Origin: Giardia intestinalis
Lineage: Eukaryota
Direction: 5' to 3' (one strand)
Assembly (NCBI GenBank): GCA_000002435.2
Contig: CM018792.1
Length of the DNA stretch: 64,000 nucleotides
Made by a program: the position numbers and the translations under genes. The stretch's first letter is position 1; the number at the start of each line of letters is the position of its first letter. Below, piece after piece: positions 15,256 through 62,019 of this stretch. The notes under the pieces are model-generated. The model was not told the DNA's origin, ran no database searches, and saw only the letters and a list, made by a program, of their open reading frames with translations.

Positions 15256-15543
15256 CCACTTATAGCTGGTAAATATGAAAACCAAATATGCTCTGAACAC
15301 GAAGACTTAAAATGTAACTCATATTTACCAATCACAGTATAGCCATCTTACTCATTACAAGTTCTCCAATATCTTAATTGTTATTGTGTGCTATTAAGGT
15401 AAGCAGCTGCTTCACTCATCGTTCGAGAGTATGCCATTTACCAACCAAAGGACTGCTTCTTTATGCCCGCAAAAGTGCACACTGGAGCCACAAGCGGCGG
15501 GAACAGTAACTATGGCTGATGCCCCCATGTGATAACTTTAAAA

Positions 15544-17673
15544 ATGCAGCTACCTAAGGTTTATCGGAAGTGCAAAACATGTCTAGTAGGAAATAGTCTG
15601 CTCCATTGCGTCGCCGAATCACTCACTGTACAAGGTCTGACTCCTGAAAAACTAATCTCACTAGCCAAGCGGCTAGTAAGCAAGTGCTCTGGGGTGGGTC
15701 ACGCTTTGATTTCATACTATAGCGTGACTATAAAAGGTGTTAGCACAATAGAGTTTATATCTCCATATGTAGGATGGTCCATAGAAGACTATCTCATGCT
15801 TACACTATATGAGGGAAGGACCATTCCAGAGGAACAAGTATATAGATTTATGGCCGCCATCATTTGGATACTTAACCAGCTCGTGCACATATGCAGAACC
15901 TCACTTCTTATGTGGATCTTTCTTGGATACGCCAATCTATCACTAAATAATTTCTGCCTAGATGAGTTTGGAGCAATACGTTTCCGCTTAGATCTAGGTC
16001 ACACGCTAAAGAACATGATACTGGTCGATGAACGACTTGCGGACTGGCCACGGATCAAAGGGAGTGAGTTAGGTGTTCATCTTAAACTGCATATAATACA
16101 GTGCATCTTACGTCTAGCGTTTCCCCTTAACAATTTAGAAATAAATGGAATTGATCCGTACTCGGGCGCATTTTCTCGAGTATTTAAAGACTCGGAACGA
16201 AGCAAGGTGTTTTGCAGTCGCATGGAGCGTTTAATTTATTTATTTCAAAAAGAAGACATAACGTTAAGTCATATATTACATACAAACTTATTCAAAACAG
16301 AATTAGAAAAGTACTGGCAATCCTTGGGCATAACAGCAGATGACGATGCATCAACGCCTCTCATCGACTCTGTGCGTGCAAACGATATACAAAAAATATA
16401 CAATTTTTATGGACGGCAGGCTGGAATGATGACTTCTTCTGGTAAAACTGCACTTATGATAGCAGCTTCCAGAGGAGACACACGCGTGACCACACTCTTA
16501 GCGACACGGGAAGCTAACTACAGAGACATTTATGGAAACTATGCAACTCTGCTGGCAATCAAGAATGGATACAAAAATGTGGCGTTGCACCTTGCAGCGT
16601 ATGAGTCCATGGTTCTTCAAGAGGATGGTATCACCCCGTTAATGCTTCACGTTATCGGCAAAAATCTACAAGTCCCATTTCAAGAACTGATACAGGATGC
16701 GGGGAAGCAAATGAAAAATGGATTTTCTGCTCTTATGATTGCTTCCTTGACTAATGATCTGGACTATTCAATGGTACTCGCAAAGAAAGAGGCAGGATTG
16801 TGTAACGCAGAAGGGAAGACAGCAGGAACACTAGCTAACGAGCAAGGAAATACACAAATTTCACAATTCTTGGCTCGTTATGAAATAGTAATGGGAGTTG
16901 ATGGAGAAACACAGCTTCATCAAGCAGTATTAGCGGGTGATCTGCGCGCAGTGGAAGCTTATGTACATGCTGCACGTTCATATAATAAGGCTGGCTATAC
17001 AGCGTTAGGATTAGCAGCAAAGTTCAATCATACTGATATCATAAAAACTCTGATTCCCCACGAAGCTGGGATGCGGTGTAAAGTTAGCTTCGAGGCATGC
17101 GGCAGGACGTTTCAGGATCCAACGGCTTTGGCCATAGCAGTCTATCATAATAACGAGCAGGCAGTGAATCTTTTAAAACGGTATGAGGCAGGATTGGGAA
17201 TGAAGCCCCTCCAAACTACTGCCATGATGCTTGCAGCAGCGTGCGGATATAGCGGACTTATATCTCTTCTGCGAACTCGAGAAGAAAAGATGCAAGACAC
17301 ACACGGCAACACCGCGCTGATGTACGCCGTGAATAGCTCTTCCCTAGACGCAGTTTATAAACTAATGAAATACGAATCTCGAATACAAAATACAGAAGGA
17401 TACACTGCACTTATGTATGCTGCCTTCCACAATAAGGTACAAATTGTTGCTGCTCTTATGAAACTGGAAGAGGGGATGATCAATGTGCAAGGCGAACCGG
17501 CTATTATCTGTGCTATCAAGGCAGAAGCTAAAGAGTGTATAAGTATACTTGTTCGAGGATCAGAGGTGTCGTATTCTAAACAGTGTATTGAAATGATTAA
17601 ATCCAGTGCTACACTGACTTGCGCTATGAAGAGAGTTATGTTGAGGTATTTTAAAGAGGAGAAATTTCATTGA
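15544..17673 (+). CDS. ankyrin-repeat protein ('protein 21.1'-like) with a possible degenerate kinase-like N-terminal region
   Basis: The track start at 15529 is GTG and follows an ATG-TGA. The real start is ATG 15544 in aactttaaaaATGcag. The C-terminal two thirds are tandem TALMxAAxxG...V..LL ankyrin repeats. The N-terminal 270 aa has alphaE/catalytic-loop-like spacing but no GxGxxG, HRD or DFG. Confidence 0.8.
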   Translation: MQLPKVYRKCKTCLVGNSLLHCVAESLTVQGLTPEKLISLAKRLVSKCSGVGHALISYYSVTIKGVSTIEFISPYVGWSIEDYLMLTLYEGRTIPEEQVYRFMAAIIWILNQLVHICRTSLLMWIFLGYANLSLNNFCLDEFGAIRFRLDLGHTLKNMILVDERLADWPRIKGSELGVHLKLHIIQCILRLAFPLNNLEINGIDPYSGAFSRVFKDSERSKVFCSRMERLIYLFQKEDITLSHILHTNLFKTELEKYWQSLGITADDDASTPLIDSVRANDIQKIYNFYGRQAGMMTSSGKTALMIAASRGDTRVTTLLATREANYRDIYGNYATLLAIKNGYKNVALHLAAYESMVLQEDGITPLMLHVIGKNLQVPFQELIQDAGKQMKNGFSALMIASLTNDLDYSMVLAKKEAGLCNAEGKTAGTLANEQGNTQISQFLARYEIVMGVDGETQLHQAVLAGDLRAVEAYVHAARSYNKAGYTALGLAAKFNHTDIIKTLIPHEAGMRCKVSFEACGRTFQDPTALAIAVYHNNEQAVNLLKRYEAGLGMKPLQTTAMMLAAACGYSGLISLLRTREEKMQDTHGNTALMYAVNSSSLDAVYKLMKYESRIQNTEGYTALMYAAFHNKVQIVAALMKLEEGMINVQGEPAIICAIKAEAKECISILVRGSEVSYSKQCIEMIKSSATLTCAMKRVMLRYFKEEKFH

Positions 17674-18611
17674 ATACCAAACCTTTGTGATAGTTTTCTT
17701 GCCCGTTCCATGTCCATGCTTAGTACAGTTGATAGTCCTTTCCAAATGACAGGGTCGAACTCATGTTGGTAAGCAGAATCTACTTGATCATCTGATTGCT
17801 GCGTATCCGAAAAACAAATTGTTGACCTAACATATAAAGACTCATATTCGTGCTTATTAAGGTCTATTTGTAGACCATGAATTGCGTAAAGTCGTTGCTG
17901 TTCTATCTTATCTGTGTATCTTCTTATCGTAATTAATCCTTCTGCATACAATTGCGCTATATCAAAGATAGCATGCACCGTTCGAGTAAAGTCTGTTGGG
18001 CTGAGAAATACGAAGGCCAGGGGGTAGAAGCCGCGGCGCGAGAGCTCCGTGACCCGCGCGAGGAGCCCCTGCTTCCGGCGCTCCTGGAGCTCGGCGCCGC
18101 ACATCGCGAGGGCCTCGTAGCGCCGCCGCTCGACGGCCTGCGCGCCGGAGGGCTCTGCCTCCCGGGGCCGCGGGGGAGCCCTGGGGGCTGCGGGCCCTGC
18201 GGTGCCGGCGGCGCACCCCGCGTACAGCGAGGCCGCGAGCTCGGGCGGGAAGCGGGCGGCGTACCCGGCCTGGAACGCGTCGGCGAGGAGGCGCAGGTCG
18301 ACGCGCGGCGGGTCTGCAGGGGCCCCGGCCCGGGGGAGGAGCCGCAGCTGGCCGCGGAGGAAGCCGGCGCCCTGGTCCTCGGCCGCCCGGGCCACCCGCG
18401 CCTCCAGGCTCCGGGCAGACAGGCGCACCGTGGCGGACAGCGCGGCCTCCGTCTGCAGCATCAGGCCGACGTCCCCCCGGGGCTGGGCGGCGTAGGACTC
18501 GTAGCCGTCCCGGAGCTCGGCCAGGAGCGCCGTGACCGCCGCGTGGTCCCGGGCCTGCGCGGCCGCCTGCACCCGGGCGGAGACGCTCGCGAGGCGCGCA
18601 CGGGGCTCCAT
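17667..18611 (-). CDS. island gene A: small Ala/Arg-rich protein. 203 aa are encoded inside the island, and in this copy the frame stays open for 111 more codons into flanking DNA
   Basis: The GC3-rich frame on the minus strand runs from ATG (18609-18611, MEPRARLAS...) down to the island edge at 18004. In copy 1 there is no stop until 17667-17669. In copy 2 the same frame stops 4 codons outside the island. Confidence 0.5.
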   Translation of the reverse strand: MEPRARLASVSARVQAAAQARDHAAVTALLAELRDGYESYAAQPRGDVGLMLQTEAALSATVRLSARSLEARVARAAEDQGAGFLRGQLRLLPRAGAPADPPRVDLRLLADAFQAGYAARFPPELAASLYAGCAAGTAGPAAPRAPPRPREAEPSGAQAVERRRYEALAMCGAELQERRKQGLLARVTELSRRGFYPLAFVFLSPTDFTRTVHAIFDIAQLYAEGLITIRRYTDKIEQQRLYAIHGLQIDLNKHEYESLYVRSTICFSDTQQSDDQVDSAYQHEFDPVIWKGLSTVLSMDMERARKLSQRFGIQ

Positions 18612-18621
18612 CGGACGGGGC

Positions 18622-18650
18622 GGAATTTTGCCGGCCGGCCAAAAATTCAC
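18622..18650. promoter_or_regulatory. palindromic AT-containing spacer between divergent island genes A and B (putative bidirectional initiator)
   Basis: ggaattttgccggccggccaaaaattcac is a near-perfect inverted repeat (aattttGCCGGCCGGCCaaaaatt). It is one of only about four AT-containing spots in the island and sits exactly between the two ATGs at 18611 (-) and 18654 (+). Confidence 0.4.
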
Positions 18651-18653
18651 TCG

Positions 18654-19793
18654 ATGGACTGCATCGGCCGCGGCGTCCTCCTCCCCCCGGGCGGGGCGTG
18701 CTCGTGCGGGGCGCTTCTGGCGGAGCTGCAGCGGGTCTGCCCCCTCCTCGCCGCCTCCCCGGGGGTCTGCGCCGCGCCCCGGGCCCTTGCGTGCTGCCAC
18801 CAGCCCCCGTGCCTCGAGATCGCGCCGGCGCCGGCCACCCCGCGCAGCGCCGTCCGGGTCCCTGGGTCCGCGTGCACGGCTCCACCGCCCGCCGCAGGGC
18901 CCCCGGAGGCCGCCCCGGCCGAGAGCGTCCAGGTGACCCTCAGCGCCCAGCGCGAGTCGTTCGTGATGCAGACGATGCGGCAGGCGCACTACGGCGGCGG
19001 AGAGGCCCCCGCGAGGGCGGAGAGCGCCCGCCTGCCCGCCCCGCAGGCCTCGGACCCGAGGGAGGCCCGGCGGAGCCACGCGTCCCGCCCGCGGACGGCC
19101 GGCCCCCGCCTCCCCGCCTGCCCCGAGGAGCCCCCCGGCAGGGTCCAGTTCCGGGGCGCCCCCGAGGCCCCGCCCCTGCGCTGCGAGCCGGCCCCGCCCT
19201 CCGAGTTCAGCGACTTCGGGTGCGAGCTGCTCGCGGCGGGCCAGCCCGAGGACCGGCGGGTCTGCGGCGCCCCGTGGGTGGACGCGCAGGACCTGCTGAG
19301 CGACGGCTCCGAGCACAGCGAGTTCTACCGCCTCGTCGAGAGGGAGCTCGCGCGGCTTCCGGAGCCCGCGGCCCCGGCCCTCCCGGAGAGCGAGCCCTCG
19401 CTGGACGCGCTGCCCGTGCACGCCTCGCCCCGGGGCCCGCAGATCATCGAGCCCACGCCGGCCGCCCTGCAGGAGCCAGAGGAGCCCGCGCCCCCGCAGC
19501 CCCCCACGCCGGGCCGCTCCGACAGCGTCTCGGCAGACATCACGGAGTCGCTCCTCGTGGAGGGCCGGCCCCTGCCCGACCGCCCCCCGGGCCCGGAGCC
19601 GTCCGAGGGCAGCGCCGGGTACAGCGGAGAGGCCTTCGACAGCTCCGGCTCGCCCCGGGGCCTGACCGACGAGGCCGCGGGGTCTGCGGGCCTGGACGAG
19701 GAGGACCTGCTGGGGTCCGTCGGCGGGGACCTGCGGGCGCTGCTCATGGACAGCGGGTCCGGGTCGCTGTCTGCGGGGGCCTGGCCGGAGTGA
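18654..19793 (+). CDS. island gene B: Pro/Ala/Glu/Ser-rich, acidic, probably disordered protein (379 aa)
   Basis: ATG at 18654 (MDCIGRG...). A GC3-rich frame runs to TGA 19791-19793. The stop overlaps a polyA-type signal gAGTGAACt. Confidence 0.6.
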   Translation: MDCIGRGVLLPPGGACSCGALLAELQRVCPLLAASPGVCAAPRALACCHQPPCLEIAPAPATPRSAVRVPGSACTAPPPAAGPPEAAPAESVQVTLSAQRESFVMQTMRQAHYGGGEAPARAESARLPAPQASDPREARRSHASRPRTAGPRLPACPEEPPGRVQFRGAPEAPPLRCEPAPPSEFSDFGCELLAAGQPEDRRVCGAPWVDAQDLLSDGSEHSEFYRLVERELARLPEPAAPALPESEPSLDALPVHASPRGPQIIEPTPAALQEPEEPAPPQPPTPGRSDSVSADITESLLVEGRPLPDRPPGPEPSEGSAGYSGEAFDSSGSPRGLTDEAAGSAGLDEEDLLGSVGGDLRALLMDSGSGSLSAGAWPE

Positions 19794-19816
19794 ACTCGGG
19801 AGAGCCTTTTTATTGA

Positions 19817-22327
19817 ATGGATTCTGCGCCACTCGCCGTCGCGATCCGGGAGCACGTCCCGGGCCCGAGGCCCCCGCCGCGGCCGTCCGGGGGGCGGTCC
19901 CTCTTCGCGCAGGCCGTGGCCGCCGGGGCCGGACAGACCGGGAGGCCCTTCGCCCTCGGGCAGCCCCCGCCGCGCGCCCCGGCCCCAGCGCCGCCCCGGG
20001 GCCCCCCACCGCCCCCCGCCGCAGAGGACCCGGGCGGGCCCCTCCTCGGGTACGGGGGCGCCGCAGACCCGGAGGCCGTCCCGTTCTGCAGCGCGGCGGA
20101 CATCGGGCTCCTCTGCCGGTCGACGAACCCCGCCCAGCGCGAGTACGGGCTCCGGATGCTCGCGAACGCCGTCGCGCTCCGGCGCGTCCGGGACGGCGGC
20201 GCCCCCGACCCCGTCCTCGAGGCCCTGCTCTGCCTCCCCGCCGACCCGCACGCGTGCCCCTCGTCTGCCGGCCACCTCCTCCTCCTGGGCCTGCGGGACG
20301 CCCTGGAGTCCGGGAGCCCCGGCCTCCTCGACGCCGCCCTCTCCGGCCTCGCCACGGTCTTCGTCGCCGACGAGGGCTTCCTCAGCGAGACCGTCCACGT
20401 CGGGGCCGCGCTGCTCGGGCTGACGTCCAGCTCGGTCGCCTTCCCCCTCGGCTCCCTGCTGCGGCGGCTCGTCGAGCACGGGCTCCCGGGGCTCCTGGGC
20501 CAGGCCCTCGACGCCGCCGCGCGCGCAGACGAGCGGCGCCGGGAGCGGCTCGCCCACAGCGCGTACCTGCTGGCCGAGCGCGTGCTCATCGGCTGCTGCC
20601 CCGCAGACGAGCCCCCGGAGACCGCCGCCGGCCTGCGGGCCCTCGCGGAGCGGCTCCTCGCGGCGCTCCTGGGCGAGCTCGCCGGGCTGGCGGAGACGGG
20701 GGCCTTCCTGACGACCGCCTCCCGCGTCGCCCTCCGGACGCTCTGCTACGACCACGTCCTCGACGGCCACGCGCTCGGCCGGGACGCCGTCGCCCTCCTC
20801 GTCGAGTCCCTCGAGGCGTTCGTCGGGGCGCTCCCCGGCCAGGACGAGGCGGTCCGCACAGAGCTCCTCTCGGCCGCCACGCTCCACTACCTCCTCGTCG
20901 CCCGGGTCCTGCGGGGGAGCCCCGAGCTCTGCGCCCTGCACGCGGCCGTCTCTGCGACGTGCGCCGCCGCCCTGGAGCGCCACGCCCCGGCCGCCCCCGC
21001 GGAGCTCAGCGCGCTCCTCGTCCTGCTCCGGATCCTCCGGGCCCGGGCCGCCGTCCCCCGCGCGCGCCTGGGGCTCTCGGAGGCATGCTTCCGGCGGCTG
21101 GTCGACTGGCGGGCCCCGCCCGAGGCCGGGGGCTTCGCGCTGCCCCAGGGGCCCTCCGCGGCGTTCGCCCCGTTCTACGCCCTCGCGGCCGTCCAGTGGC
21201 GCGGCCCGGGCGAGTGGGGCGCGGCGGAGGCCTGGGTCGGCTGCGTGATGGACGTCCTCGCCAGCGGGCCCCCGGTCGCGCGCTGGGCGCCCCCGGCCGT
21301 CGACGCCCACCGGCGGGCAGGCGTGCTCCCGTGCGCGGTGACCGACGCAGGGGTCGCCCTCGCGCTCCTCGTCGCGGCCCTGGCGGCCGTCTGGGGCCCC
21401 GGGCTCCCGTTTGCCGCCGGCCTCGCCGAGCGGGTCGGGGAGCGCCTGGCAGGGCTCCCGGCCGAGTTCCGGTTCGTCGTCGCGTTCCCGCTCGCCCGGC
21501 TCCTCCCCCCGCTGCCCGCTATCGAGTGCGGGCTCTACCCGAACGCGGCGCTCCTCGGGGCGCTCCGGGCCGTCACGGGCCACCCGGGCTACGACCCCGC
21601 GGCAGAGGCGCTTGCGCACGTCGACGCCCGCTGCCCGTGCCCCGCGCTCGCGGCCCTCCACGCGGCGTGCGTGCTCGCCTCGGACGGGATGCGGCGCGAC
21701 GGGGCGTGGCGGCTCGCGGTCCTCCGGCTCGCGCTGCAGCGCCTGGCCGGGCTGGAGACCGCAGGGGCCGCCCGGGGCCGCGTCCTCGCGTACGGGCTCC
21801 TCTGCGTCCTCGACACGCTGACGGGCGTCTGTCGCCTCCCCCCGGACGCCGCGGCCCTCCTCGCGGAGACGCTCGCCGGGGTCCTCCGCCTCGCCCGCGC
21901 AGGCCCCGCCCCCGCCGCCGAGCTCCTCTACGCAGCGCCCGCCGGGGGGCTCCGGACGCTCGACGCCGCCGCCGGCGCGTTTGTCGAGGGCCTCCACGGG
22001 GGCGCGGCGGTGCTCCCCGAGGCCCCGCTCGTCTACCTCGCGCTCCTCCACCCGCAGCTCGTCCCGGACCCCCGCCGCCGGGCAGAGCTCTGGTCCGGGC
22101 TCGCGCTCCTGCGGCTCGACTTCGCGGCGCTCGACGGGGGCCTCCTCGCGGGGCTCTGCGAAGACGACCCCGCGCCCGTCCTCGCGTGCCTCGCGTGCTA
22201 CGAGCGCCGCGCAGAGACCGCCCTGTCGCGCCGCGTCCTCGCCCGGTACGCAGAGGCCCACCGGGGGCAGAGGCCCGACCGGGTCGTCGTCGCGGCCGTC
22301 GAGGAGGCCCTCCGACCAGCGGGCTAG
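19817..22327 (+). CDS. island gene C: 836-aa Ala/Leu/Arg-rich protein, predicted alpha-helical repeat architecture, unknown function
   Basis: ATG at 19817 in ctttttattgaATGG. GC3 periodicity across the whole length and a single long frame. Confidence 0.7.
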   Translation: MDSAPLAVAIREHVPGPRPPPRPSGGRSLFAQAVAAGAGQTGRPFALGQPPPRAPAPAPPRGPPPPPAAEDPGGPLLGYGGAADPEAVPFCSAADIGLLCRSTNPAQREYGLRMLANAVALRRVRDGGAPDPVLEALLCLPADPHACPSSAGHLLLLGLRDALESGSPGLLDAALSGLATVFVADEGFLSETVHVGAALLGLTSSSVAFPLGSLLRRLVEHGLPGLLGQALDAAARADERRRERLAHSAYLLAERVLIGCCPADEPPETAAGLRALAERLLAALLGELAGLAETGAFLTTASRVALRTLCYDHVLDGHALGRDAVALLVESLEAFVGALPGQDEAVRTELLSAATLHYLLVARVLRGSPELCALHAAVSATCAAALERHAPAAPAELSALLVLLRILRARAAVPRARLGLSEACFRRLVDWRAPPEAGGFALPQGPSAAFAPFYALAAVQWRGPGEWGAAEAWVGCVMDVLASGPPVARWAPPAVDAHRRAGVLPCAVTDAGVALALLVAALAAVWGPGLPFAAGLAERVGERLAGLPAEFRFVVAFPLARLLPPLPAIECGLYPNAALLGALRAVTGHPGYDPAAEALAHVDARCPCPALAALHAACVLASDGMRRDGAWRLAVLRLALQRLAGLETAGAARGRVLAYGLLCVLDTLTGVCRLPPDAAALLAETLAGVLRLARAGPAPAAELLYAAPAGGLRTLDAAAGAFVEGLHGGAAVLPEAPLVYLALLHPQLVPDPRRRAELWSGLALLRLDFAALDGGLLAGLCEDDPAPVLACLACYERRAETALSRRVLARYAEAHRGQRPDRVVVAAVEEALRPAG

Positions 22328-22334
22328 CGTTCAC

Positions 22335-23264
22335 TCAATCAGGGGCACCTGACCCCAGGGCGGCCCGCAGGCCCGCGACCTCCCCCCGGAGCCGGGCGAC
22401 CTCGTCCTCCAGGGCCTTGAAGCGCAGGGCCGTCGCGACCGCAGGCGCCCCGCCCTCTGCGTCGAGGAGCTCCACGAGGGCCGCGGCGGTGAGGCGGCGC
22501 TCCGGCTCCAGGACGAGGAGGTGGGCGAGGACGCCCCGGACGACGGGGTCCCCGACCGCGCCCAGGTCCGGCCGCCAGCCCGCGACGTAGACCTCCGCGG
22601 GGGCCCGCCCGGAGAGGAACGGGGGCCTGCCGCCCGCCGCGAGCTCGTAGGCGACCATCCCGAGGCTCCACATGTCCGCGGCCGGCGTGTGGCTCCCGCC
22701 CCGCAGGACCTCCGGCGCGGCGTAGACGGGGACGGCCATGGAGGCGAGCCCCCCGGGGCCCTCCCTGCAGAGCCCGAAGTCGGAGATGGCGAACTCCGCC
22801 CCGGCCTCGTCGAGGAGGACGTTCGCGGGCCGCAGGTCGCAGTGCGTGAGGGCGGGGAGCGGGGCGCCCGCGGCGTCGGTCTTCCCGGGCCGGTGGAGGT
22901 AGGCGAGCCCCGCGCCCACCTGGCGGAGGACGGCGACGACCATCTCGCGCGGGGCGAGCTGCCTTCTGCGGCGGAGGCTCCGGATGGCCCCGTCGAGGGA
23001 GCCTGCGTAGCGCCGCATCTCGACGTAGATGTAGCCCTCGTGCCGGACGACGCGCCCGTACTCGACGACGTTCGGGTGGCGGAGGCGCGGGAGGGTCCGG
23101 AGCTCGAGCTCGAGCGAGGCCTGCGCGTCGGGGGGCAGCCCGTCGGTCGGGATCTCCTTGACCGCCCTGTCGGGGGCGCTCTTCAGGCCGTAGACGGTCC
23201 CGTGGGCCCCGCTCCCGAGCTCTGCGCCCAGGTCTTCGAGGAGGGCGTCGATGGCCTCGGACAT
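22335..23264 (-). CDS. island Ser/Thr protein kinase (309 aa) with atypical catalytic loop HCDLRPAN
   Basis: LGSGAHGTVY (Gly loop), RAVKEI (beta-3 Lys), HCDLRPANVLL (catalytic loop, R->C and K->R versus HRDLKPEN), SDFGL (DFG), YAAPEV (APE) and DMWSLGMVAYEL (subdomain IX). The ATG is preceded on the minus strand by ggattaaaaagATG. The stop TGA overlaps AGTGAAC. Confidence 0.85.
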   Translation of the reverse strand: MSEAIDALLEDLGAELGSGAHGTVYGLKSAPDRAVKEIPTDGLPPDAQASLELELRTLPRLRHPNVVEYGRVVRHEGYIYVEMRRYAGSLDGAIRSLRRRRQLAPREMVVAVLRQVGAGLAYLHRPGKTDAAGAPLPALTHCDLRPANVLLDEAGAEFAISDFGLCREGPGGLASMAVPVYAAPEVLRGGSHTPAADMWSLGMVAYELAAGGRPPFLSGRAPAEVYVAGWRPDLGAVGDPVVRGVLAHLLVLEPERRLTAAALVELLDAEGGAPAVATALRFKALEDEVARLRGEVAGLRAALGSGAPD

Positions 23265-23268
23265 CTTT

Positions 23269-23595
23269 TTAATCCGCGACTGGGCGATTGGGTGGGCTCA
23301 ATCGCTTGGGCTCAGATCGGGGCCTGTATAGATTCACCGAACAGATATGACAATTAGCGCACTTACTACCTAAGTTACGTCTTCCTGCAGCAGAAAAATC
23401 CAATGAGACCACCGCGCTCTTAGTAATATTAGAATTTGCGCATTTTGTCTTATCGTTATTAGAGTCAAAGATTTTTATCCTGGCACAATTATTGGATCTG
23501 TCCTTGTAGTTAGTAGTGGAAAATCCCACTCCACATGATGTTTGTGCCCATATAAACTGGATAATTAAGGCAACAAACACAAATCTGCCAAGCAT
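23269..23595 (-). CDS. questionable small ORF (108 aa) with N-terminal signal-peptide-like segment and 6 Cys; its last ~16 codons lie inside the island's right edge
   Basis: ATG at 23595 verified. MLGRFVFVALIIQFIWAQTS is hydrophobic. The frame continues across the island boundary at 23316 to a stop at 23269. Confidence 0.3.
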   Translation of the reverse strand: MLGRFVFVALIIQFIWAQTSCGVGFSTTNYKDRSNNCARIKIFDSNNDKTKCANSNITKSAVVSLDFSAAGRRNLGSKCANCHICSVNLYRPRSEPKRLSPPNRPVAD

Positions 23596-56287: not shown

Positions 56288-56911
56288 CTAAAGAGTAAGC
56301 TTAAGAAATACGAAGGCCAGGGGGTAGAAGCCGCGGCGCGAGAGCTCCGTGACCCGCGCGAGGAGCCCCTGCTTCCGGCGCTCCTGGAGCTCGGCGCCGC
56401 ACATCGCGAGGGCCTCGTAGCGCCGCCGCTCGACGGCCTGCGCGCCGGAGGGCTCTGCCTCCCGGGGCCGCGGGGGAGCCCTGGGGGCTGCGGGCCCTGC
56501 GGTGCCGGCGGCGCACCCCGCGTACAGCGAGGCCGCGAGCTCGGGCGGGAAGCGGGCGGCGTACCCGGCCTGGAACGCGTCGGCGAGGAGGCGCAGGTCG
56601 ACGCGCGGCGGGTCTGCAGGGGCCCCGGCCCGGGGGAGGAGCCGCAGCTGGCCGCGGAGGAAGCCGGCGCCCTGGTCCTCGGCCGCCCGGGCCACCCGCG
56701 CCTCCAGGCTCCGGGCAGACAGGCGCACCGTGGCGGACAGCGCGGCCTCCGTCTGCAGCATCAGGCCGACGTCCCCCCGGGGCTGGGCGGCGTAGGACTC
56801 GTAGCCGTCCCGGAGCTCGGCCAGGAGCGCCGTGACCGCCGCGTGGTCCCGGGCCTGCGCGGCCGCCTGCACCCGGGCGGAGACGCTCGCGAGGCGCGCA
56901 CGGGGCTCCAT
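56288..56911 (-). CDS. island gene A, copy 2 (207 aa; the stop lies 4 codons outside the island)
   Basis: ATG at 56909-56911. The protein is identical to the island-encoded part of copy 1 and ends ...FVFLKLTL. Confidence 0.55.
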   Translation of the reverse strand: MEPRARLASVSARVQAAAQARDHAAVTALLAELRDGYESYAAQPRGDVGLMLQTEAALSATVRLSARSLEARVARAAEDQGAGFLRGQLRLLPRAGAPADPPRVDLRLLADAFQAGYAARFPPELAASLYAGCAAGTAGPAAPRAPPRPREAEPSGAQAVERRRYEALAMCGAELQERRKQGLLARVTELSRRGFYPLAFVFLKLTL

Positions 56912-56921
56912 CGGACGGGGC

Positions 56922-56950
56922 GGAATTTTGCCGGCCGGCCAAAAATTCAC
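56922..56950. promoter_or_regulatory. palindromic spacer between divergent genes A and B, copy 2
   Basis: Same aattttgccggccggccaaaaatt element as in copy 1. Confidence 0.4.
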
Positions 56951-56953
56951 TCG

Positions 56954-58093
56954 ATGGACTGCATCGGCCGCGGCGTCCTCCTCCCCCCGGGCGGGGCGTG
57001 CTCGTGCGGGGCGCTTCTGGCGGAGCTGCAGCGGGTCTGCCCCCTCCTCGCCGCCTCCCCGGAGGTCTGCGCCGCGCCCCGGGCCCTTGTCTGCTGCCGC
57101 CAGCCCCCGTGCCTCGAGATCGCGCCGGCGCCGGCCACCCCGAGCAGCGCCGTCCGGGTCCCTGGGTCCGCGTGCACGGCTCCACCGCCCGCCGCAGGGC
57201 CCCCGGAGGCCGCCCCGGCCGAGAGCGTCCAGGTGACCCTCAGCGCCCAGCGCGAGTCGTTCGTGATGCAGACGATGCGGCAGGCGCACTACGGCGGCGG
57301 AGAGGCCCCCGCGAGGGCGGAGAGCGCCCGCCTGCCCGCCCCGCAGGCCTCGGACCCGAGGGAGGCCCGGCGGAGCCACGCGTCCCGCCCGCGGACGGCC
57401 GGCCCCCGCCTCCCCGCCTGCCCCGAGGAGCCCCCCGGCAGGGTCCAGTTCCGGGGCGCCCCCGAGGCCCCGCCCCTGCGCTGCGAGCCGGCCCCGCCCT
57501 CCGAGTTCAGCGACTTCGGGTGCGAGCTGCTCGCGGCGGGCCAGCCCGAGGACCGGCGGGTCTGCGGCGCCCCGTGGGTGGACGCGCAGGACCTGCTGAG
57601 CGACGGCTCCGAGCACAGCGAGTTCTACCGCCTCGTCGAGAGGGAGCTTGCGCGGCTTCCGGAGCCCGCGGCCCCGGCCCTCCCGGAGAGCGAGCCCTCG
57701 CTGGACGCGCTGCCCGTGCACGCCTCGCCCCGGGGCCCGCAGATCATCGAGCCCACGCCGGCCGCCCTGCAGGAGCCAGAGGAGCCCGCGCCCCCGCAGC
57801 CCCCCACGCCGGGCCGCTCCGACAGCGTCTCGGCAGACATCACGGAGTCGCTCCTCGTGGAGGGCCGGCCCCTGCCCGACCGCCCCCCGGGCCCGGAGCC
57901 GTCCGAGGGCAGCCCCGGGTACAGCGGAGAGGCCTTCGACAGCTCCGGCTCGCCCCGGGGCCTGACCGACGAGGCCGCGGGGTCTGCGGGCCTGGACGAG
58001 GAGGACCTGCTGGGGTCCGTCGGCGGGGACCTGCGGGCGCTGCTCATGGACAGCGGGTCCGGGTCGCTGTCTGCGGGGGCCTGGCCGGAGTGA
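56954..58093 (+). CDS. island gene B, copy 2 (379 aa, acidic, low complexity)
   Basis: ATG at 56954. Three amino-acid differences from copy 1 (G->E, A->V, H->R in the ASPGVCAAPRALACCH region) plus A->P near the C-terminus. The stop overlaps AGTGAAC. Confidence 0.6.
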   Translation: MDCIGRGVLLPPGGACSCGALLAELQRVCPLLAASPEVCAAPRALVCCRQPPCLEIAPAPATPSSAVRVPGSACTAPPPAAGPPEAAPAESVQVTLSAQRESFVMQTMRQAHYGGGEAPARAESARLPAPQASDPREARRSHASRPRTAGPRLPACPEEPPGRVQFRGAPEAPPLRCEPAPPSEFSDFGCELLAAGQPEDRRVCGAPWVDAQDLLSDGSEHSEFYRLVERELARLPEPAAPALPESEPSLDALPVHASPRGPQIIEPTPAALQEPEEPAPPQPPTPGRSDSVSADITESLLVEGRPLPDRPPGPEPSEGSPGYSGEAFDSSGSPRGLTDEAAGSAGLDEEDLLGSVGGDLRALLMDSGSGSLSAGAWPE

Positions 58094-58116
58094 ACTCGGG
58101 AGAGCCTTTTTATTGA

Positions 58117-60627
58117 ATGGATTCTGCGCCACTCGCCGTCGCGATCCGGGAGCACGTCCCGGGCCCGAGGCCCCCGCCGCGGCCGTCCGGGGGGCGGTCC
58201 CTCTTCGCGCAGGCCGTGGCCGCCGGGGCCGGGCAGACCGGAAGGCCCTTCGCCCTCGGGCAGCCCCCGCCGCGCGCCCCGGCCCCAGCGCCGCCCCGGG
58301 GCCCCCCACCGCCCCCCGCCGCAGAGGACCCGGGCGGGCCCCTCCTCGGGTACGGGGGCGCCGCAGACCCGGAGGCCGTCCCGTTCTGCAGCGCGGCGGA
58401 CATCGGGCTCCTCTGCCGGTCGACGAACCCCGCTCAGCGCGAGTACGGGCTCCGGATGCTCGCGAACGCCGTCGCGCTCCGGCGCGTCCGGGACGGCGGC
58501 GCCCCCGATCCCGTCCTCGAGGCCCTGCTCTGCCTCCCCGCCGACCCGCACGCGTGCCCCTCGTCTGCCGGCCACCTCCTCCTCCTGGGCCTGCGAGACG
58601 CCCTGGAGTCCGGGAGCCCCGGCCTCCTCGACGCCGCCCTCTCCGGCCTCGCCACGGTCTTCGTCGCCGACGAGGGCTTCCTCAGCGAGACCGTCCACGT
58701 CGGGGCCGCGCTGCTCGGGCTGACGTCCAGCTCGGTCGCCTTCCCCCTCGGCTCCCTGCTGCGGCGGCTCGTCGAGCACGGGCTCCCGGGGCTCCTGGGC
58801 CAGGCCCTCGACGCCGCCGCGCGCGCAGACGAGCGGCGCCGGGAGCGGCTCGCCCACAGCGCGTACCTGCTGGCCGAGCGCGTGCTCATCGGCTGCTGCC
58901 CCGCAGACGAGCCCCCGGAGACCGCCGCCGGCCTGCGGGCCCTCGCGGAGCGGCTCCTCGCGGCGCTCCTGGGCGAGCTCGCCGGGCTGGCGGAGACGGG
59001 GGCCTTCCTGACGACCGCCTCCCGCGTCGCCCTCCGGACGCTCTGCTACGACCACGTCCTCGACGGCCACGCGCTCGGCCGGGACGCCGTCGCCCTCCTC
59101 GTCGAGTCCCTCGAGGCGTTCGTCGGGGCGCTCCCCGGCCAGGACGAGGCGGTCCGCACAGAGCTCCTCTCGGCCGCCACGCTCCACTACCTCCTCGTCG
59201 CCCGGGTCCTGCGGGGGAGCCCCGAGCTCTGCGCCCTGCACGCGGCCGTCTCTGCGACGTGCGCCGCCGCCCTGGAGCGCCACGCCCCGGCCGCCCCCGC
59301 GGAGCTCAGCGCGCTCCTCGTCCTGCTCCGGATCCTCCGGGCCCGGGCCGCCGTCCCCCGCGCGCGCCTGGGGCTCTCGGAGGCATGCTTCCGGCGGCTG
59401 GTCGACTGGCGGGCCCCGCCCGAGGCCGGGGGCTTCGCGCTGCCTCGGGGGCCCTCCGCGGCGTTCGCCCCGTTCTACGCCCTCGCGGCCGTCCAGTGGC
59501 GCGGCCCGGGCGAGTGGGGCGCGGCGGAGGCCTGGGTCGGCTGCGTGATGGACGTCCTCGCCAGCGGGCCCCCGGTCGCGCGCTGGGCGCCCCCGGCCGT
59601 CGACGCCCACCGGCGGGCAGGCGTGCTCCCGTGCGCGGTGACCGACGCAGGGGTCGCCCTCGCGCTCCTCGTCGCGGCCCTGGCGGCCGTCTGGGGCCCC
59701 GGGCTCCCGTTTGCCGCCGGCCTCGCCGAGCGGGTCGGGGAGCGCCTGGCAGGGCTCCCGGCCGAGTTCCGGTTCGTCGTCGCGTTCCCGCTCGCCCGGC
59801 TCCTCCCCCCGCTGCCCGCTATCGAGTGCGGGCTCTACCCGAACGCGGCGCTCCTCGGGGCGCTCCGGGCCGTCACGGGCCACCCGGGCTACGACCCCGC
59901 GGCAGAGGCGCTTGCGCACGTCGACGCCCGCTGCCCGTGCCCCGCGCTCGCGGCCCTCCACGCGGCGTGCGTGCTCGCCTCGGACGGGATGCGGCGCGAC
60001 GGGGCGTGGCGGCTCGCGGTCCTCCGGCTCGCGCTGCAGCGCCTGGCCGGGCTGGAGACCGCAGGGGCCGCCCGGGGCCGCGTCCTCGCGTACGGGCTCC
60101 TCTGCGTCCTCGACACGCTGACGGGCGTCTGTCGCCTCCCCCCGGACGCCGCGGCCCTCCTCGCGGAGACGCTCGCCGGGGTCCTCCGCCTCGCCCGCGC
60201 AGGCCCCGCCCCCGCCGCCGAGCTCCTCTACGCAGCGCCCGCCGGGGGGCTCCGGACGCTCGACGCCGCCGCCGGCGCGTTTGTCGAGGGCCTCCACGGG
60301 GGCGCGGCGGTGCTCCCCGAGGCCCCGCTCGTCTACCTCGCGCTCCTCCACCCGCAGCTCGTCCCGGACCCCCGCCGCCGGGCAGAGCTCTGGTCCGGGC
60401 TCGCGCTCCTGCGGCTCGACTTCGCGGCGCTCGACGGGGGCCTCCTCGCGGGGCTCTGCGAAGACGACCCCGCGCCCGTCCTCGCGTGCCTCGCGTGCTA
60501 CGAGCGCCGCGCAGAGACCGCCCTGTCGCGCCGCGTCCTCGCCCGGTACGCAGAGGCCCACCGGGGGCAGAGGCCCGACCGGGTCGTCGTCGCGGCCGTC
60601 GAGGAGGCCCTCCGACCAGCGGGCTAG
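58117..60627 (+). CDS. island gene C, copy 2 (836 aa, Ala/Leu-rich)
   Basis: Same frame and length as copy 1. One difference noticed: Q->R in ALPQGPS. Confidence 0.7.
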   Translation: MDSAPLAVAIREHVPGPRPPPRPSGGRSLFAQAVAAGAGQTGRPFALGQPPPRAPAPAPPRGPPPPPAAEDPGGPLLGYGGAADPEAVPFCSAADIGLLCRSTNPAQREYGLRMLANAVALRRVRDGGAPDPVLEALLCLPADPHACPSSAGHLLLLGLRDALESGSPGLLDAALSGLATVFVADEGFLSETVHVGAALLGLTSSSVAFPLGSLLRRLVEHGLPGLLGQALDAAARADERRRERLAHSAYLLAERVLIGCCPADEPPETAAGLRALAERLLAALLGELAGLAETGAFLTTASRVALRTLCYDHVLDGHALGRDAVALLVESLEAFVGALPGQDEAVRTELLSAATLHYLLVARVLRGSPELCALHAAVSATCAAALERHAPAAPAELSALLVLLRILRARAAVPRARLGLSEACFRRLVDWRAPPEAGGFALPRGPSAAFAPFYALAAVQWRGPGEWGAAEAWVGCVMDVLASGPPVARWAPPAVDAHRRAGVLPCAVTDAGVALALLVAALAAVWGPGLPFAAGLAERVGERLAGLPAEFRFVVAFPLARLLPPLPAIECGLYPNAALLGALRAVTGHPGYDPAAEALAHVDARCPCPALAALHAACVLASDGMRRDGAWRLAVLRLALQRLAGLETAGAARGRVLAYGLLCVLDTLTGVCRLPPDAAALLAETLAGVLRLARAGPAPAAELLYAAPAGGLRTLDAAAGAFVEGLHGGAAVLPEAPLVYLALLHPQLVPDPRRRAELWSGLALLRLDFAALDGGLLAGLCEDDPAPVLACLACYERRAETALSRRVLARYAEAHRGQRPDRVVVAAVEEALRPAG

Positions 60628-60634
60628 CGTTCAC

Positions 60635-61564
60635 TCAATCAGGGGCACCTGACCCCAGGGCGGCCCGCAGGCCCGCGACCTCCCCCCGGAGCCGGGCGAC
60701 CTCGTCCTCCAGGGCCTTGAAGCGCAGGGCCGTCGCGACCGCAGGCGCCCCGCCCTCTGCGTCGAGGAGCTCCACGAGGGCCGCGGCGGTGAGGCGGCGC
60801 TCCGGCTCCAGGACGAGGAGGTGGGCGAGGACGCCCCGGACGACGGGGTCCCCGACCGCGCCCAGGTCCGGCCGCCAGCCCGCGACGTAGACCTCCGCGG
60901 GGGCCCGCCCGGAGAGGAACGGGGGCCTGCCGCCCGCCGCGAGCTCGTAGGCGACCATCCCGAGGCTCCACATGTCCGCGGCCGGCGTGTGGCTCCCGCC
61001 CCGCAGGACCTCCGGCGCGGCGTAGACGGGGACGGCCATGGAGGCGAGCCCCCCGGGGCCCTCCCTGCAGAGCCCGAAGTCGGAGATGGCGAACTCCGCC
61101 CCGGCCTCGTCGAGGAGGACGTTCGCGGGCCGCAGGTCGCAGTGCGTGAGGGCGGGGAGCGGGGCGCCCGCGGCGTCGGTCTTCCCGGGCCGGTGGAGGT
61201 AGGCGAGCCCCGCGCCCACCTGGCGGAGGACGGCGACGACCATCTCGCGCAGGGCGAGCTGCCTTCTGCGGCGGAGGCTCCGGATGGCCCCGTCGAGGGA
61301 GCCTGCGTAGCGCCGCATCTCGACGTAGATGTAGCCCTCGTGCCGGACGACGCGCCCGTACTCGACGACGTTCGGGTGGCGGAGGCGCGGGAGGGTCCGG
61401 AGCTCGAGCTCGAGCGAGGCCTGCGCGTCGGGGGGCAGCCCGTCGGTCGGGATCTCCTTGACCGCCCTGTCGGGGGCGCTCTTCAGGCCGTAGACGGTCC
61501 CGTGGGCCCCGCTCCCGAGCTCTGCGCCCAGGTCTTCGAGGAGGGCGTCGATGGCCTCGGACAT
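60635..61564 (-). CDS. island Ser/Thr kinase, copy 2
   Basis: Same motifs as copy 1. One substitution noticed: P->L in RRRRQLAPREM. The track ORF extends 15 codons upstream only because the 8-bp insertion changes the upstream frame. The ATG at 61562-61564 retains the aaaaagATG context. Confidence 0.85.
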   Translation of the reverse strand: MSEAIDALLEDLGAELGSGAHGTVYGLKSAPDRAVKEIPTDGLPPDAQASLELELRTLPRLRHPNVVEYGRVVRHEGYIYVEMRRYAGSLDGAIRSLRRRRQLALREMVVAVLRQVGAGLAYLHRPGKTDAAGAPLPALTHCDLRPANVLLDEAGAEFAISDFGLCREGPGGLASMAVPVYAAPEVLRGGSHTPAADMWSLGMVAYELAAGGRPPFLSGRAPAEVYVAGWRPDLGAVGDPVVRGVLAHLLVLEPERRLTAAALVELLDAEGGAPAVATALRFKALEDEVARLRGEVAGLRAALGSGAPD

Positions 61565-62019
61565 CTTTTTAATCCGCGACTGGGCGATTGGGTGATTGGG
61601 CGGGCTCAATCGCTTGGGCTCAGACTGAGATACCGCCTAGCTGAGCGCCGCTCAATGAGGGTGATCGGGCGGAATTGAACGAAAAGGAAAGGACCCGACC
61701 ATCGTTCCAGAGATGGCTTGACCGAGTTCGCCTGTCGACTAGGATCAGATCAGGCAGCTAGTACTGGACTACTCACTATCAATATGTATTCTATCACTGG
61801 AGTTATGGAACAGCTAAGTGAAGTCTATATTCTTAAGATGAATCTTAATTGTCAATAATTGATGTTTACAAATCTGGAGTCTCTGCATCTTAGGTCAATC
61901 CTAAATAGGTAAATATGAGCATGTCCAGATAAAGTTTACTGTCAACCCACATAGTAAGATAAGTTAAAGCAGATTACGACCTCCGAGGTTGAAAGAGGGA
62001 ATGCTTGTTGATGACCTCA

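What the first reader, a model, noticed from the sequence alone, without database searches (positions are those of the whole stretch)
17667..18611. Gene A of the island lacks its own stop: it reads 111 codons into flanking DNA in copy 1 but stops after 4 codons in copy 2
The island edge at 18004/56304 falls inside gene A's reading frame. Copy 1 therefore encodes a 314-aa fusion whose C-terminal third (SPTDFTRTVHAIFDIAQLY...) is host-composition sequence, ending convergently against the ankyrin gene's stop. Copy 2 gives a 207-aa protein. The island-encoded 203 residues are identical in both copies. Either the insertion created a chimera with the 3' part of a pre-existing host gene, or the element relies on flanking DNA for termination. 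The 111-codon open stretch in ~47% GC DNA is unlikely by chance. My rough estimate is about 0.5%.
Basis: partly seen in the sequence, partly recalled or inferred. Interest (0 to 1): 0.5.

Follow-up and report, generated by a model that had tools for sequence, protein, structure and literature searches.

The report
Intact gene and its truncated duplicate
The "fusion" is an ordinary, ancient Giardia gene (probably the Nse4 subunit of the Smc5/6 DNA-repair complex). Its first two thirds lie inside a duplicated 5.3-kb block that has become extremely GC-rich, and the second copy is a duplicate cut off at the block's edge.

Summary
The window is Giardia intestinalis WB. A 5.3-kb, 79% GC block occurs twice (18004-23316 and 56304-61624, 99.6% identical). 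Gene A reads 111 codons past the block edge in copy 1 (314 aa) and 4 codons past it in copy 2 (207 aa).

Head and tail are contiguous in assemblages A2, E and B, in Giardia muris (same convergent ankyrin neighbour, uniform GC3 about 0.6), in Dysnectes and in two unnamed relatives. The tail is under purifying selection (dN/dS 0.10-0.15). The junction lies inside the family's most conserved motif, which weakly but consistently matches the Nse4 C-terminal domain.

So copy 1 is the intact native gene (old ID GL50803_40006). Copy 2 is a 3'-truncated partial duplicate. There is no chimera and no borrowed terminator.

The truncated copy sits at an orthologous site in assemblage B, yet paralogs are 98-100% identical within a genome and only about 77% identical between A and B. 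That is concerted evolution. GC3 is 0.95 in the duplicated head and 0.29 in the tail. In assemblage E the head appears to be single-copy and has decayed toward AT (46 versus 2 changes). GC-biased gene conversion between the copies is the likely cause.

The parts
17667..18611 (-). Gene A, intact copy (314 aa plus stop). Old annotation GL50803_40006, there modelled from Met51. Probable Nse4-type kleisin.
   Evidence: ORF and translation. GC3 periodicity. Full-length orthologs in A2, E, B, G. muris and Dysnectes. Annotation name.
17667..18003 (-). Native 3' third of gene A: 111 codons plus stop, outside the repeat. GC3 is 0.29. It encodes most of the Nse4_C-like winged-helix region.
   Evidence: dN/dS is 0.10-0.15 between assemblages A, E and B. 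Invariant residues across 7 species. Collinear matches to yeast Nse4 residues 300-337 and 379-397.
18004..18611 (-). 5' two thirds of gene A (203 codons), inside the repeat. GC3 is 0.95.
18004..23316 (.). Repeat copy 1 (5313 bp, 79% GC). This is the parental locus for gene A.
56304..61624 (.). Repeat copy 2 (5321 bp).
56288..56911 (-). 3'-truncated duplicate of gene A (207 aa: 203 shared residues plus KLTL). It lacks the winged-helix domain.
   Evidence: The same truncated form occurs in A2 (P0037), in B (P0048, at an orthologous site) and in a further lineage (P0049).
18612..18653 (.). 42-bp divergent intergenic spacer between genes A and B. It holds the palindrome GAATTTT-GCCGGCCGGCC-AAAAATTC (18623-18648). 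Presumed bidirectional AT-rich initiator, duplicated with the block.
   Evidence: Sequence. Function is inferred from the known Giardia promoter style and was not tested.
18654..19793 (+). Gene B (379 aa, GL50803_00d23876). Hypothetical, no Pfam match.
19817..22327 (+). Gene C (836 aa, GL50803_00d60704). Hypothetical, no Pfam match. GC3 is 0.96.
22335..23264 (-). Gene D, a NEK-type protein kinase (309 aa). GC3 is 0.97. A third copy lies elsewhere on the chromosome next to GWT1.
15529..17673 (+). Convergent ankyrin-repeat gene whose stop overlaps the gene-A stop. The same convergent pair exists in G. muris.

Best explanation
Gene A is a single, vertically inherited diplomonad gene, most likely the Nse4 (delta-kleisin) subunit of Smc5/6. 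The copy at 17667-18611 is the intact gene with its own native stop.

The 5.3-kb GC-rich 'island' was not inserted here. It is the unit of an old segmental duplication whose left breakpoint lies in codon 203 of gene A, inside the conserved C-terminal winged-helix motif (YPLAFVFL|SPTDFTRTVHAIFD).

Copy 2 therefore carries only the promoter and the first 203 codons, and it runs into the first stop in unrelated DNA after 4 codons.

The copies have been kept almost identical by gene conversion since before assemblages A and B split. Inferred: a GC bias in that conversion has driven the exchanged tract to about 79% GC (GC3 about 0.95). The intact gene thus shows a compositional step exactly at the duplication breakpoint.

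Shown: contiguity and conservation of head plus tail, orthology of both loci, and concerted evolution. Inferred: GC-biased conversion as the cause of the GC content, and the Nse4 function.
For: 1. Organism and annotation. The window is G. intestinalis WB. The ORF from Met51 equals XP_001706128.1, GL50803_40006.

2. Full-length homologs. Head and tail are contiguous in A2 (P0045), E/P15 (P0046), B (P0047/P0056), G. muris GMRT_10367 (P0050), two unnamed relatives (P0051, P0053) and Dysnectes brevis (P0054). There are 23 invariant residues on both sides of the junction.

3. G. muris locus. The ortholog is convergent with the orthologous ankyrin gene (37% identity, E = 3e-141). Its composition is uniform: GC3 is 0.61 in the head and 0.63 in the tail.

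4. Selection on the tail. dN/dS is 0.10-0.15.

5. Nse4 link. Pfam Nse4_C is the top or only hit in all 8 full-length members scanned, at 15-23 bits against a 26-bit cut-off. The family profile's four best PDB hits are all Nse4/EID3, with two collinear motifs. Smc5 and Smc6 are reported in Giardia (PMC2488364, Table 2).

6. Age of the duplication. Assemblage B has a truncated copy whose breakpoint is within 4 nt of WB's. Its flank aligns to the WB copy-2 flank at score 27.5, against 8.1 +/- 3.3 for shuffles (0 of 500 reach it), while a control flank does not align. In A1, A2 and B the truncated copy lies about 20 genes from NOG1.

7. Concerted evolution. Paralogs are 99.6% identical in WB (100% in gene A) and 98% in B, against about 77% between A and B in gene A. 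All 4 differences between A1 and A2 in the head are shared by both paralogs of each isolate.

8. Composition. GC3 is 0.93-1.00 in the head and 0.29 in the tail in both A and B.

9. Assemblage E. Two independent assemblies break at the start of gene B, and the gene-A head is assembled as unique sequence. Head GC3 there is only 0.63-0.80. With B as outgroup, 46 third positions went from G/C to A/T in the E lineage, against 2 in the WB lineage. The tail is symmetric. Genes B and C in E-type DNA keep GC3 about 0.95.
Against: The Nse4 assignment is below Pfam's gathering score. The PDB profile hits are marginal (E = 0.04). No N-terminal Nse4 domain was detected. Both AlphaFold models were of low confidence (pLDDT 43 and 49), and the fold search gave nothing significant.

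The single-copy status of the head in assemblage E is inferred from contig ends, not from a finished assembly.

GC-biased conversion is inferred from pattern only. No conversion tracts or polymorphism spectra were analysed. G. muris lacks genes B to D beside gene A, so the history of the rest of the block is unknown.

No expression data were available for either copy.
Confidence: 0.85

Rival explanations
1. Ancient chimera: a foreign or mobile GC-rich island was inserted into a host gene, fusing an island-borne 5' ORF to the 3' end of an unrelated host gene.
For: There is a sharp compositional step inside the ORF. The island occurs twice.
Against: G. muris, Dysnectes and two other relatives have the head and tail as one gene of uniform composition. 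The G. muris gene has the same neighbour. The junction lies inside a conserved motif that matches a single Nse4 domain. No integrase or transposase domain was found in the block, and no inverted terminal repeats.
Confidence: 0.02
2. The element carries an open-ended gene that relies on whatever flanking DNA it lands in for termination. The 111 open codons in copy 1 are luck.
For: Copy 2 does terminate in unrelated flanking DNA after 4 codons.
Against: The chance of 111 open codons is 3e-4 to 2e-3. The tail has dN/dS of 0.10-0.15 and is conserved as far as Dysnectes.
Confidence: 0.01
3. Copy 1 is intact and copy 2 is truncated, as above. But the GC-richness is not caused by conversion between the copies. 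The block was already GC-rich, from a local mutation bias, a recombination hotspot or selection. The duplication breakpoint fell at the pre-existing compositional edge, for example because such an edge is fragile.
For: The third copy of kinase D is GC-rich simply by inheritance. On the right side, GC falls about 65 nt before the repeat ends. GC-enriched genes in Giardia have been linked to conversion between alleles or lineages rather than between paralogs (PMC12669663).
Against: It needs a pre-existing GC3 step from 0.95 to 0.29 in the middle of a conserved domain, and a breakpoint that landed within about 12 nt of it. It does not explain why only the gene-A head decays toward AT in assemblage E while genes B and C stay at GC3 0.95.
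Confidence: 0.12

Closest known systems
Nse4 / EID3 (delta-kleisin of the Smc5/6 complex; Pfam PF08743 Nse4_C)
   Same: Length is 310-400 aa. There is a C-terminal motif of the form hydrophobic-F-x-h-x-P-x-x-F-x-x-[ST]-h-x-x-h-F-x-h-x-x-L-x-x-x-G, followed at the very C-terminus by MDMxxxxKLxxxxxI. Both are collinear with yeast Nse4 residues 300-337 and 379-397. Nse4_C is the top Pfam hit in every full-length family member. Giardia is reported to have Smc5 and Smc6.
   Different: All scores are below the curated thresholds. No N-terminal Nse4/Nse3-binding domain was detected. The head is alanine-, arginine- and proline-rich in G. intestinalis because of its GC content. No structural confirmation was obtained.
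Partial (truncated) gene duplicates at segmental-duplication breakpoints
   Same: One intact parental gene, and one copy cut at the duplication edge that reads into unrelated DNA to the first stop. The promoter is duplicated with it.
   Different: The truncated copy has persisted since before the split of assemblages A and B and is still sequence-identical to its parent, because of continuing conversion.
Concerted evolution with GC-biased gene conversion, as proposed for rDNA arrays (including Giardia rDNA) and for multigene families in vertebrates and yeasts
   Same: Paralogs are more alike than orthologs. GC3 is enriched only in the exchanged tract. The tract decays toward AT where exchange seems to have stopped.
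   Different: This is a two- to three-copy dispersed protein-coding block, not a tandem array. The enrichment is extreme (GC3 0.95-0.98 in a 46% GC genome). The tract edge is visible inside one conserved gene. The organism has no known sexual cycle.
Genomic island or mobile element insertion
   Same: A discrete block of deviant composition, present twice, with sharp edges.
   Different: No mobility genes and no terminal inverted repeats were found. The left part of the block is the 5' end of a native gene. A third partial copy has a different edge (22329).

Membership tests
Nse4/EID kleisin (PF08743 Nse4_C) | C-terminal winged-helix domain matching PF08743 at or above the gathering score (26 bits) | tested here: inconclusive
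   Scores are 17.4 bits for WB and 15-23 bits for the others. It is the top or only hit in all 8 full-length members. In Dysnectes the match covers profile positions 7-87 of 89. The family profile's four best PDB hits are all Nse4/EID3, E = 0.04-0.3, with two collinear motifs.
Nse4/EID kleisin | N-terminal helical domain that binds the Smc6 neck and Nse3 (PF15412) | tested here: not met
   No Pfam hit in any member at E <= 1. The N-terminal region is predicted helical, but the model has low confidence.
Nse4/EID kleisin | Winged-helix fold of the C-terminal domain | tested here: inconclusive
   The AlphaFold2 model has pLDDT 49. Foldseek against the PDB gave no hit with E < 1. The weak hits are mostly winged-helix proteins, including the ScpA C-terminal winged-helix domain, but none is significant.
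Nse4/EID kleisin | Smc5 and Smc6 partners present in the same genome; physical bridging of their heads | not testable with these tools
   Smc5 and Smc6 (Rad18) are listed for Giardia in PMC2488364, Table 2. Binding was not tested.
Inserted mobile element or genomic island | Empty site in relatives; the flanks rejoin into uninterrupted sequence | tested here: not met
   The G. muris ortholog continues from tail into head with no break, and the 'island' part of gene A is homologous native sequence.
Inserted mobile element or genomic island | Mobility genes, terminal repeats or target-site duplication | tested here: not met
   Pfam finds only a protein kinase in the block. No inverted repeats were found with the settings used, that is 100 nt or longer. 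The only end feature is an 11-nt near-match (10 of 11), TTGGGCT[G/C]AGA, at 17996-18006 and 23306-23316, with chance about 0.02.
Segmental duplication under concerted evolution | Both copies at orthologous sites in diverged lineages, yet paralogs more similar than orthologs | tested here: met
   Flank orthology between A and B is supported by 0 of 500 shuffles reaching the observed score, and the breakpoints lie within 4 nt of each other. Paralogs are 98-100% identical against about 77% for orthologs. All 4 of 4 A1/A2 differences are shared by both paralogs.
GC-biased gene conversion tract | GC3 raised only within the exchanged tract, and relaxing toward AT where exchange stops | tested here: met
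   GC3 is 0.95 in the head against 0.29 in the tail, and 0.61 against 0.63 in G. muris. In the E lineage there are 46 changes from G/C to A/T against 2 in WB, in the head only. The single-copy status of the head in E is inferred from contig ends.
GC-biased gene conversion tract | Excess of AT-to-GC fixations over polymorphisms; observed conversion tracts | not tested
   This needs population resequencing mapped to both copies.

The most novel reading that the evidence does not exclude
Gene conversion between dispersed repeats in Giardia has a GC bias strong enough to push a 5.3-kb protein-coding block to 79% GC (GC3 0.95-0.98) in a roughly 46% GC genome. The edge of the exchanged tract is recorded to within a few codons inside a conserved gene (a probable Nse4). 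The loss of one partner in assemblage E then gives a natural decay experiment. Together these would give a direct, quantifiable read-out of recombination-associated bias in an organism whose sexuality is disputed. They would also offer one explanation for Giardia's other extreme-GC repeats, such as its rDNA.
Probability: 0.55. Interest if true: 0.6.

Novelty: new member of a known kind. Interest (0 to 1): 0.4.

Why it matters
For the finding as posed, the answer is mundane. No gene fusion or open-ended mobile gene exists here, only an intact gene and its truncated duplicate.

Three by-products have some value:

1. A hypothetical Giardia protein (GL50803_40006) gets a plausible identity as the missing Nse4 kleisin of Smc5/6.

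2. Public gene models start this gene at Met51 and treat the GC-rich block inconsistently. These can be corrected.

3. The locus is an unusually clean case of concerted evolution with an extreme compositional consequence. The step from GC3 0.95 to 0.29 occurs inside one conserved domain, and a sister lineage shows relaxation. This bears on how much recombination and conversion operates in Giardia.

Tried and rejected
1. First guess: the 79% GC block is Giardia rDNA and its ORFs are artefacts. Rfam found no RNA family in the window, and clean codon periodicity shows four real genes.

2. The mechanical ORF list gives 780-aa and 978-aa ORFs across the block in several frames. These are artefacts of stop-codon scarcity. 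Only the frames with GC3 near 1.0 were kept.

3. My first coordinates for gene B (18653) were one base out of frame, so its 'no hit' results are void. They were redone with 18654-19790.

4. An exact look-up of the 314-aa protein found nothing, because the old public model starts at Met51.

5. Logan contigs L005 and L006 join the copy-1 flank and the copy-2 flank, respectively, to the third kinase copy next to GWT1. Both cannot be true, so they were treated as assembly paths through a repeat. They were used only to show that a third copy exists and ends at 22329.

6. The word-indexed search with the seven-species alignment added nothing new.

7. Two AlphaFold2 runs were of low confidence, and the Foldseek PDB search was uninformative.

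8. Searching for a second tail copy in the window found none.

9. Literature searches for the gene IDs, or for a description of this GC-rich duplication, found nothing. The supplement of PMC12669663 was not available.
Full report
**What is there**

The window is from a 2.76-Mb chromosome of Giardia intestinalis WB. Exact protein look-ups return NOG1, cathepsin L, 'Kinase, NEK' and hypothetical proteins GL50803_0060704 / 00d60704.

A block of about 79% GC sits in about 46% GC DNA. It occurs twice in direct orientation, at 18004-23316 and 56304-61624, with 15 substitutions and one 8-bp indel (99.57% identity). It is not rDNA, since Rfam finds nothing.

Codon-position GC shows four genuine genes with GC3 of 0.92-1.00:
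- gene A, minus strand, to 18611;
- gene B, 18654-19793, plus strand;
- gene C, 19817-22327, plus strand;
- gene D, 22335-23264, minus strand, a protein kinase.

The many other long ORFs in the block come from stop-codon scarcity.

**The observation**

Gene A runs from ATG 18611 to a stop at 17667-17669 (314 aa). In copy 2 it runs from 56911 to a stop at 56288-56290 (207 aa, ending KLTL). The 608 shared nucleotides are identical. The repeat edge falls in codon 203.

The tail is 38% GC, not 47%. The chance of 111 open codons is 3e-4 to 2e-3.

**What gene A is**

Searching with the 314-aa protein returns full-length relatives that contain both head and tail. These come from assemblage A2 (DHA2_152216), assemblage E (GLP15_3080) and assemblage B (P0047, which clusters at 90% identity or more with QR46_3279). 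Truncated forms turn up in A and B as well.

An exhaustive profile search adds G. muris GMRT_10367, two unnamed relatives and Dysnectes brevis. All are 350-395 aa and cover both parts. Across the seven species, 23 residues are invariant, on both sides of the junction. The best-conserved block is YPLAFVFL|xPxxFTQTVHxxFDIxQLYxEG, with the junction at the bar.

In G. muris the gene is convergent with the ortholog of the same ankyrin gene (E = 3e-141). It is compositionally uniform, with GC3 of 0.61 in the head and 0.63 in the tail. The WB tail evolves under purifying selection, with dN/dS of 0.10-0.15 against E and B.

The old WB annotation already carries this ORF, from Met51, as GL50803_40006. 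So copy 1 is an intact native gene with its own stop. It rules out both a chimera and a borrowed terminator.

**Likely function**

Pfam Nse4_C is the top or only hit for all eight full-length family members. Scores are 15-23 bits against a 26-bit cut-off, and in Dysnectes the match covers almost the whole profile.

The family profile's four best PDB matches are yeast Nse4 (three entries) and human EID3. Two collinear motifs align:
- YPlaFlalhPadFtrtvhalFDiaqLyaeG against yeast residues 300-337;
- the C-terminal lsldaerakklveryGiq against IFQMDMPTWRKLIKKYNIT, residues 379-397.

Giardia is reported to encode Smc5 and Smc6 (PMC2488364, Table 2).

Against this, the scores are sub-threshold and no N-terminal Nse4 domain is detected. 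The AlphaFold models were poor, and the fold search was uninformative. I rate 'divergent Nse4 kleisin' at about 0.7.

If that is right, the truncated copy lacks the winged-helix domain that binds the Smc5 head and could not close the ring. This last point rests on established kleisin architecture and is an inference.

**What the 'island' is**

The block is a segmental duplication whose left breakpoint lies within gene A. Several results show that the duplication is old.

- Assemblage B has a truncated copy whose breakpoint is within 4 nt of WB's.
- The flank of that copy aligns to the WB copy-2 flank (score 27.5, against 8.1 +/- 3.3 for dinucleotide shuffles, 0 of 500 reaching it). A control flank does not align (first seen).
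- In A1, A2 and B the truncated copy lies about 20 genes from NOG1, judged from accession order.
- A further lineage (L011) has a truncated copy broken two codons earlier.

A third copy of the kinase alone lies next to GWT1 and ends at 22329. The repeats therefore do not share fixed ends, and no mobility genes or terminal inverted repeats are present.

**Concerted evolution and composition**

Paralogs within a genome are 99.6% identical in WB (100% in gene A) and 98% in B. A-B orthologs of the same segment are about 77% identical. All four amino-acid differences between A1 and A2 in the head are shared by both paralogs of each isolate. The copies are therefore being homogenised.

GC3 is 0.93-1.00 right up to the breakpoint and 0.29 beyond it, in both A and B. 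Because the head belongs to a native gene that is compositionally ordinary in G. muris, the GC-richness arose in place. It cannot be explained by foreign origin.

Assemblage E gives a natural control. The P15 contig runs through the gene-A head as unique sequence and ends 96 nt into gene B. There it overlaps an E-type contig that starts at the gene B ATG. This suggests the repeat in E starts at gene B.

In E the head has GC3 of only 0.63-0.80. With B as outgroup, 46 third positions changed from G/C to A/T in the E lineage, against 2 in WB. The tail is symmetric, and genes B and C keep GC3 of about 0.95.

The simplest reading is that conversion between the copies carries a GC bias, and the sequence relaxes toward AT when the partner is lost. 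I rate that at about 0.6. The main alternative is a pre-existing GC-rich domain whose edge happened to become the breakpoint.

GC-biased conversion has been suggested for Giardia rDNA (PMC10123126). GC-enriched genes have also been linked to conversion events between A sub-assemblages (PMC12669663). I found no description of this locus.

**Verdict**

The thing itself is ordinary: an intact gene and its truncated duplicate at a duplication breakpoint. The compositional step it exposes and the probable Nse4 identity are modestly interesting by-products.

Noticed in passing
window 18623-18648 (and 56923-56948): The 42-bp spacer between the divergent genes A and B holds a near-perfect palindrome, GAATTTT-GCCGGCCGGCC-AAAAATTC. 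It places an AT-rich element 6-18 nt upstream of each ATG. It looks like a symmetric bidirectional Giardia initiator kept AT-rich inside a 79% GC block.
   Followed up: no
window 17996-18006 and 23306-23316: An 11-nt near-identical direct repeat, TTGGGCT[G/C]AGA, spans the left breakpoint of copy 1 and forms the last 11 nt of the repeat. The repeat unit both starts and ends with AGA. This may be microhomology used when the duplicate formed. The chance of such a match within +/-20 nt is about 0.02.
   Followed up: partly
window 61594-61601: Copy 2 has an 8-bp insertion (GATTGGGC, a local tandem duplication of the ATTGGG motif) 30-37 bp upstream of the kinase D ATG. It is the only indel between the copies.
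   Followed up: no
L005 and L006 (Logan contigs); window 22329-23316: A third copy of kinase D (308 aa, KAE8303967) lies next to a GWT1 gene elsewhere on the same chromosome. Similarity ends 6 nt past the kinase stop. The two Logan contigs join it to different window flanks, so at least one of them must be a chimeric path through the repeat.
   Followed up: partly
window 18763-18843 and 19933-20296: The 15 substitutions between the copies are clustered in gene B and the 5' part of gene C. There are none in the gene-A head and one in the kinase. This suggests more recent or more frequent homogenisation near the repeat ends.
   Followed up: no
window 17667-17673: The stop codons of gene A and the convergent ankyrin gene overlap, with 7 nt shared by the two ORFs. 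In G. muris the annotated orthologs overlap by 83 nt, so the tail-to-tail overlap is conserved.
   Followed up: no
window 18654-19793 and 19817-22327: Genes B and C have no Pfam domain. The word-indexed search with gene C found relatives only in Giardia-like short contigs (69-99% identity), and nothing in G. muris. In G. muris the upstream neighbour of gene A is an acetyltransferase instead. Gene B itself was not searched.
   Followed up: partly
window 18461-18611: Public models of gene A in WB, DH and P15 start at Met51 (264-265 aa). Conservation of the first 50 residues with assemblage B and the GC3 periodicity support the upstream ATG at 18611.
   Followed up: partly
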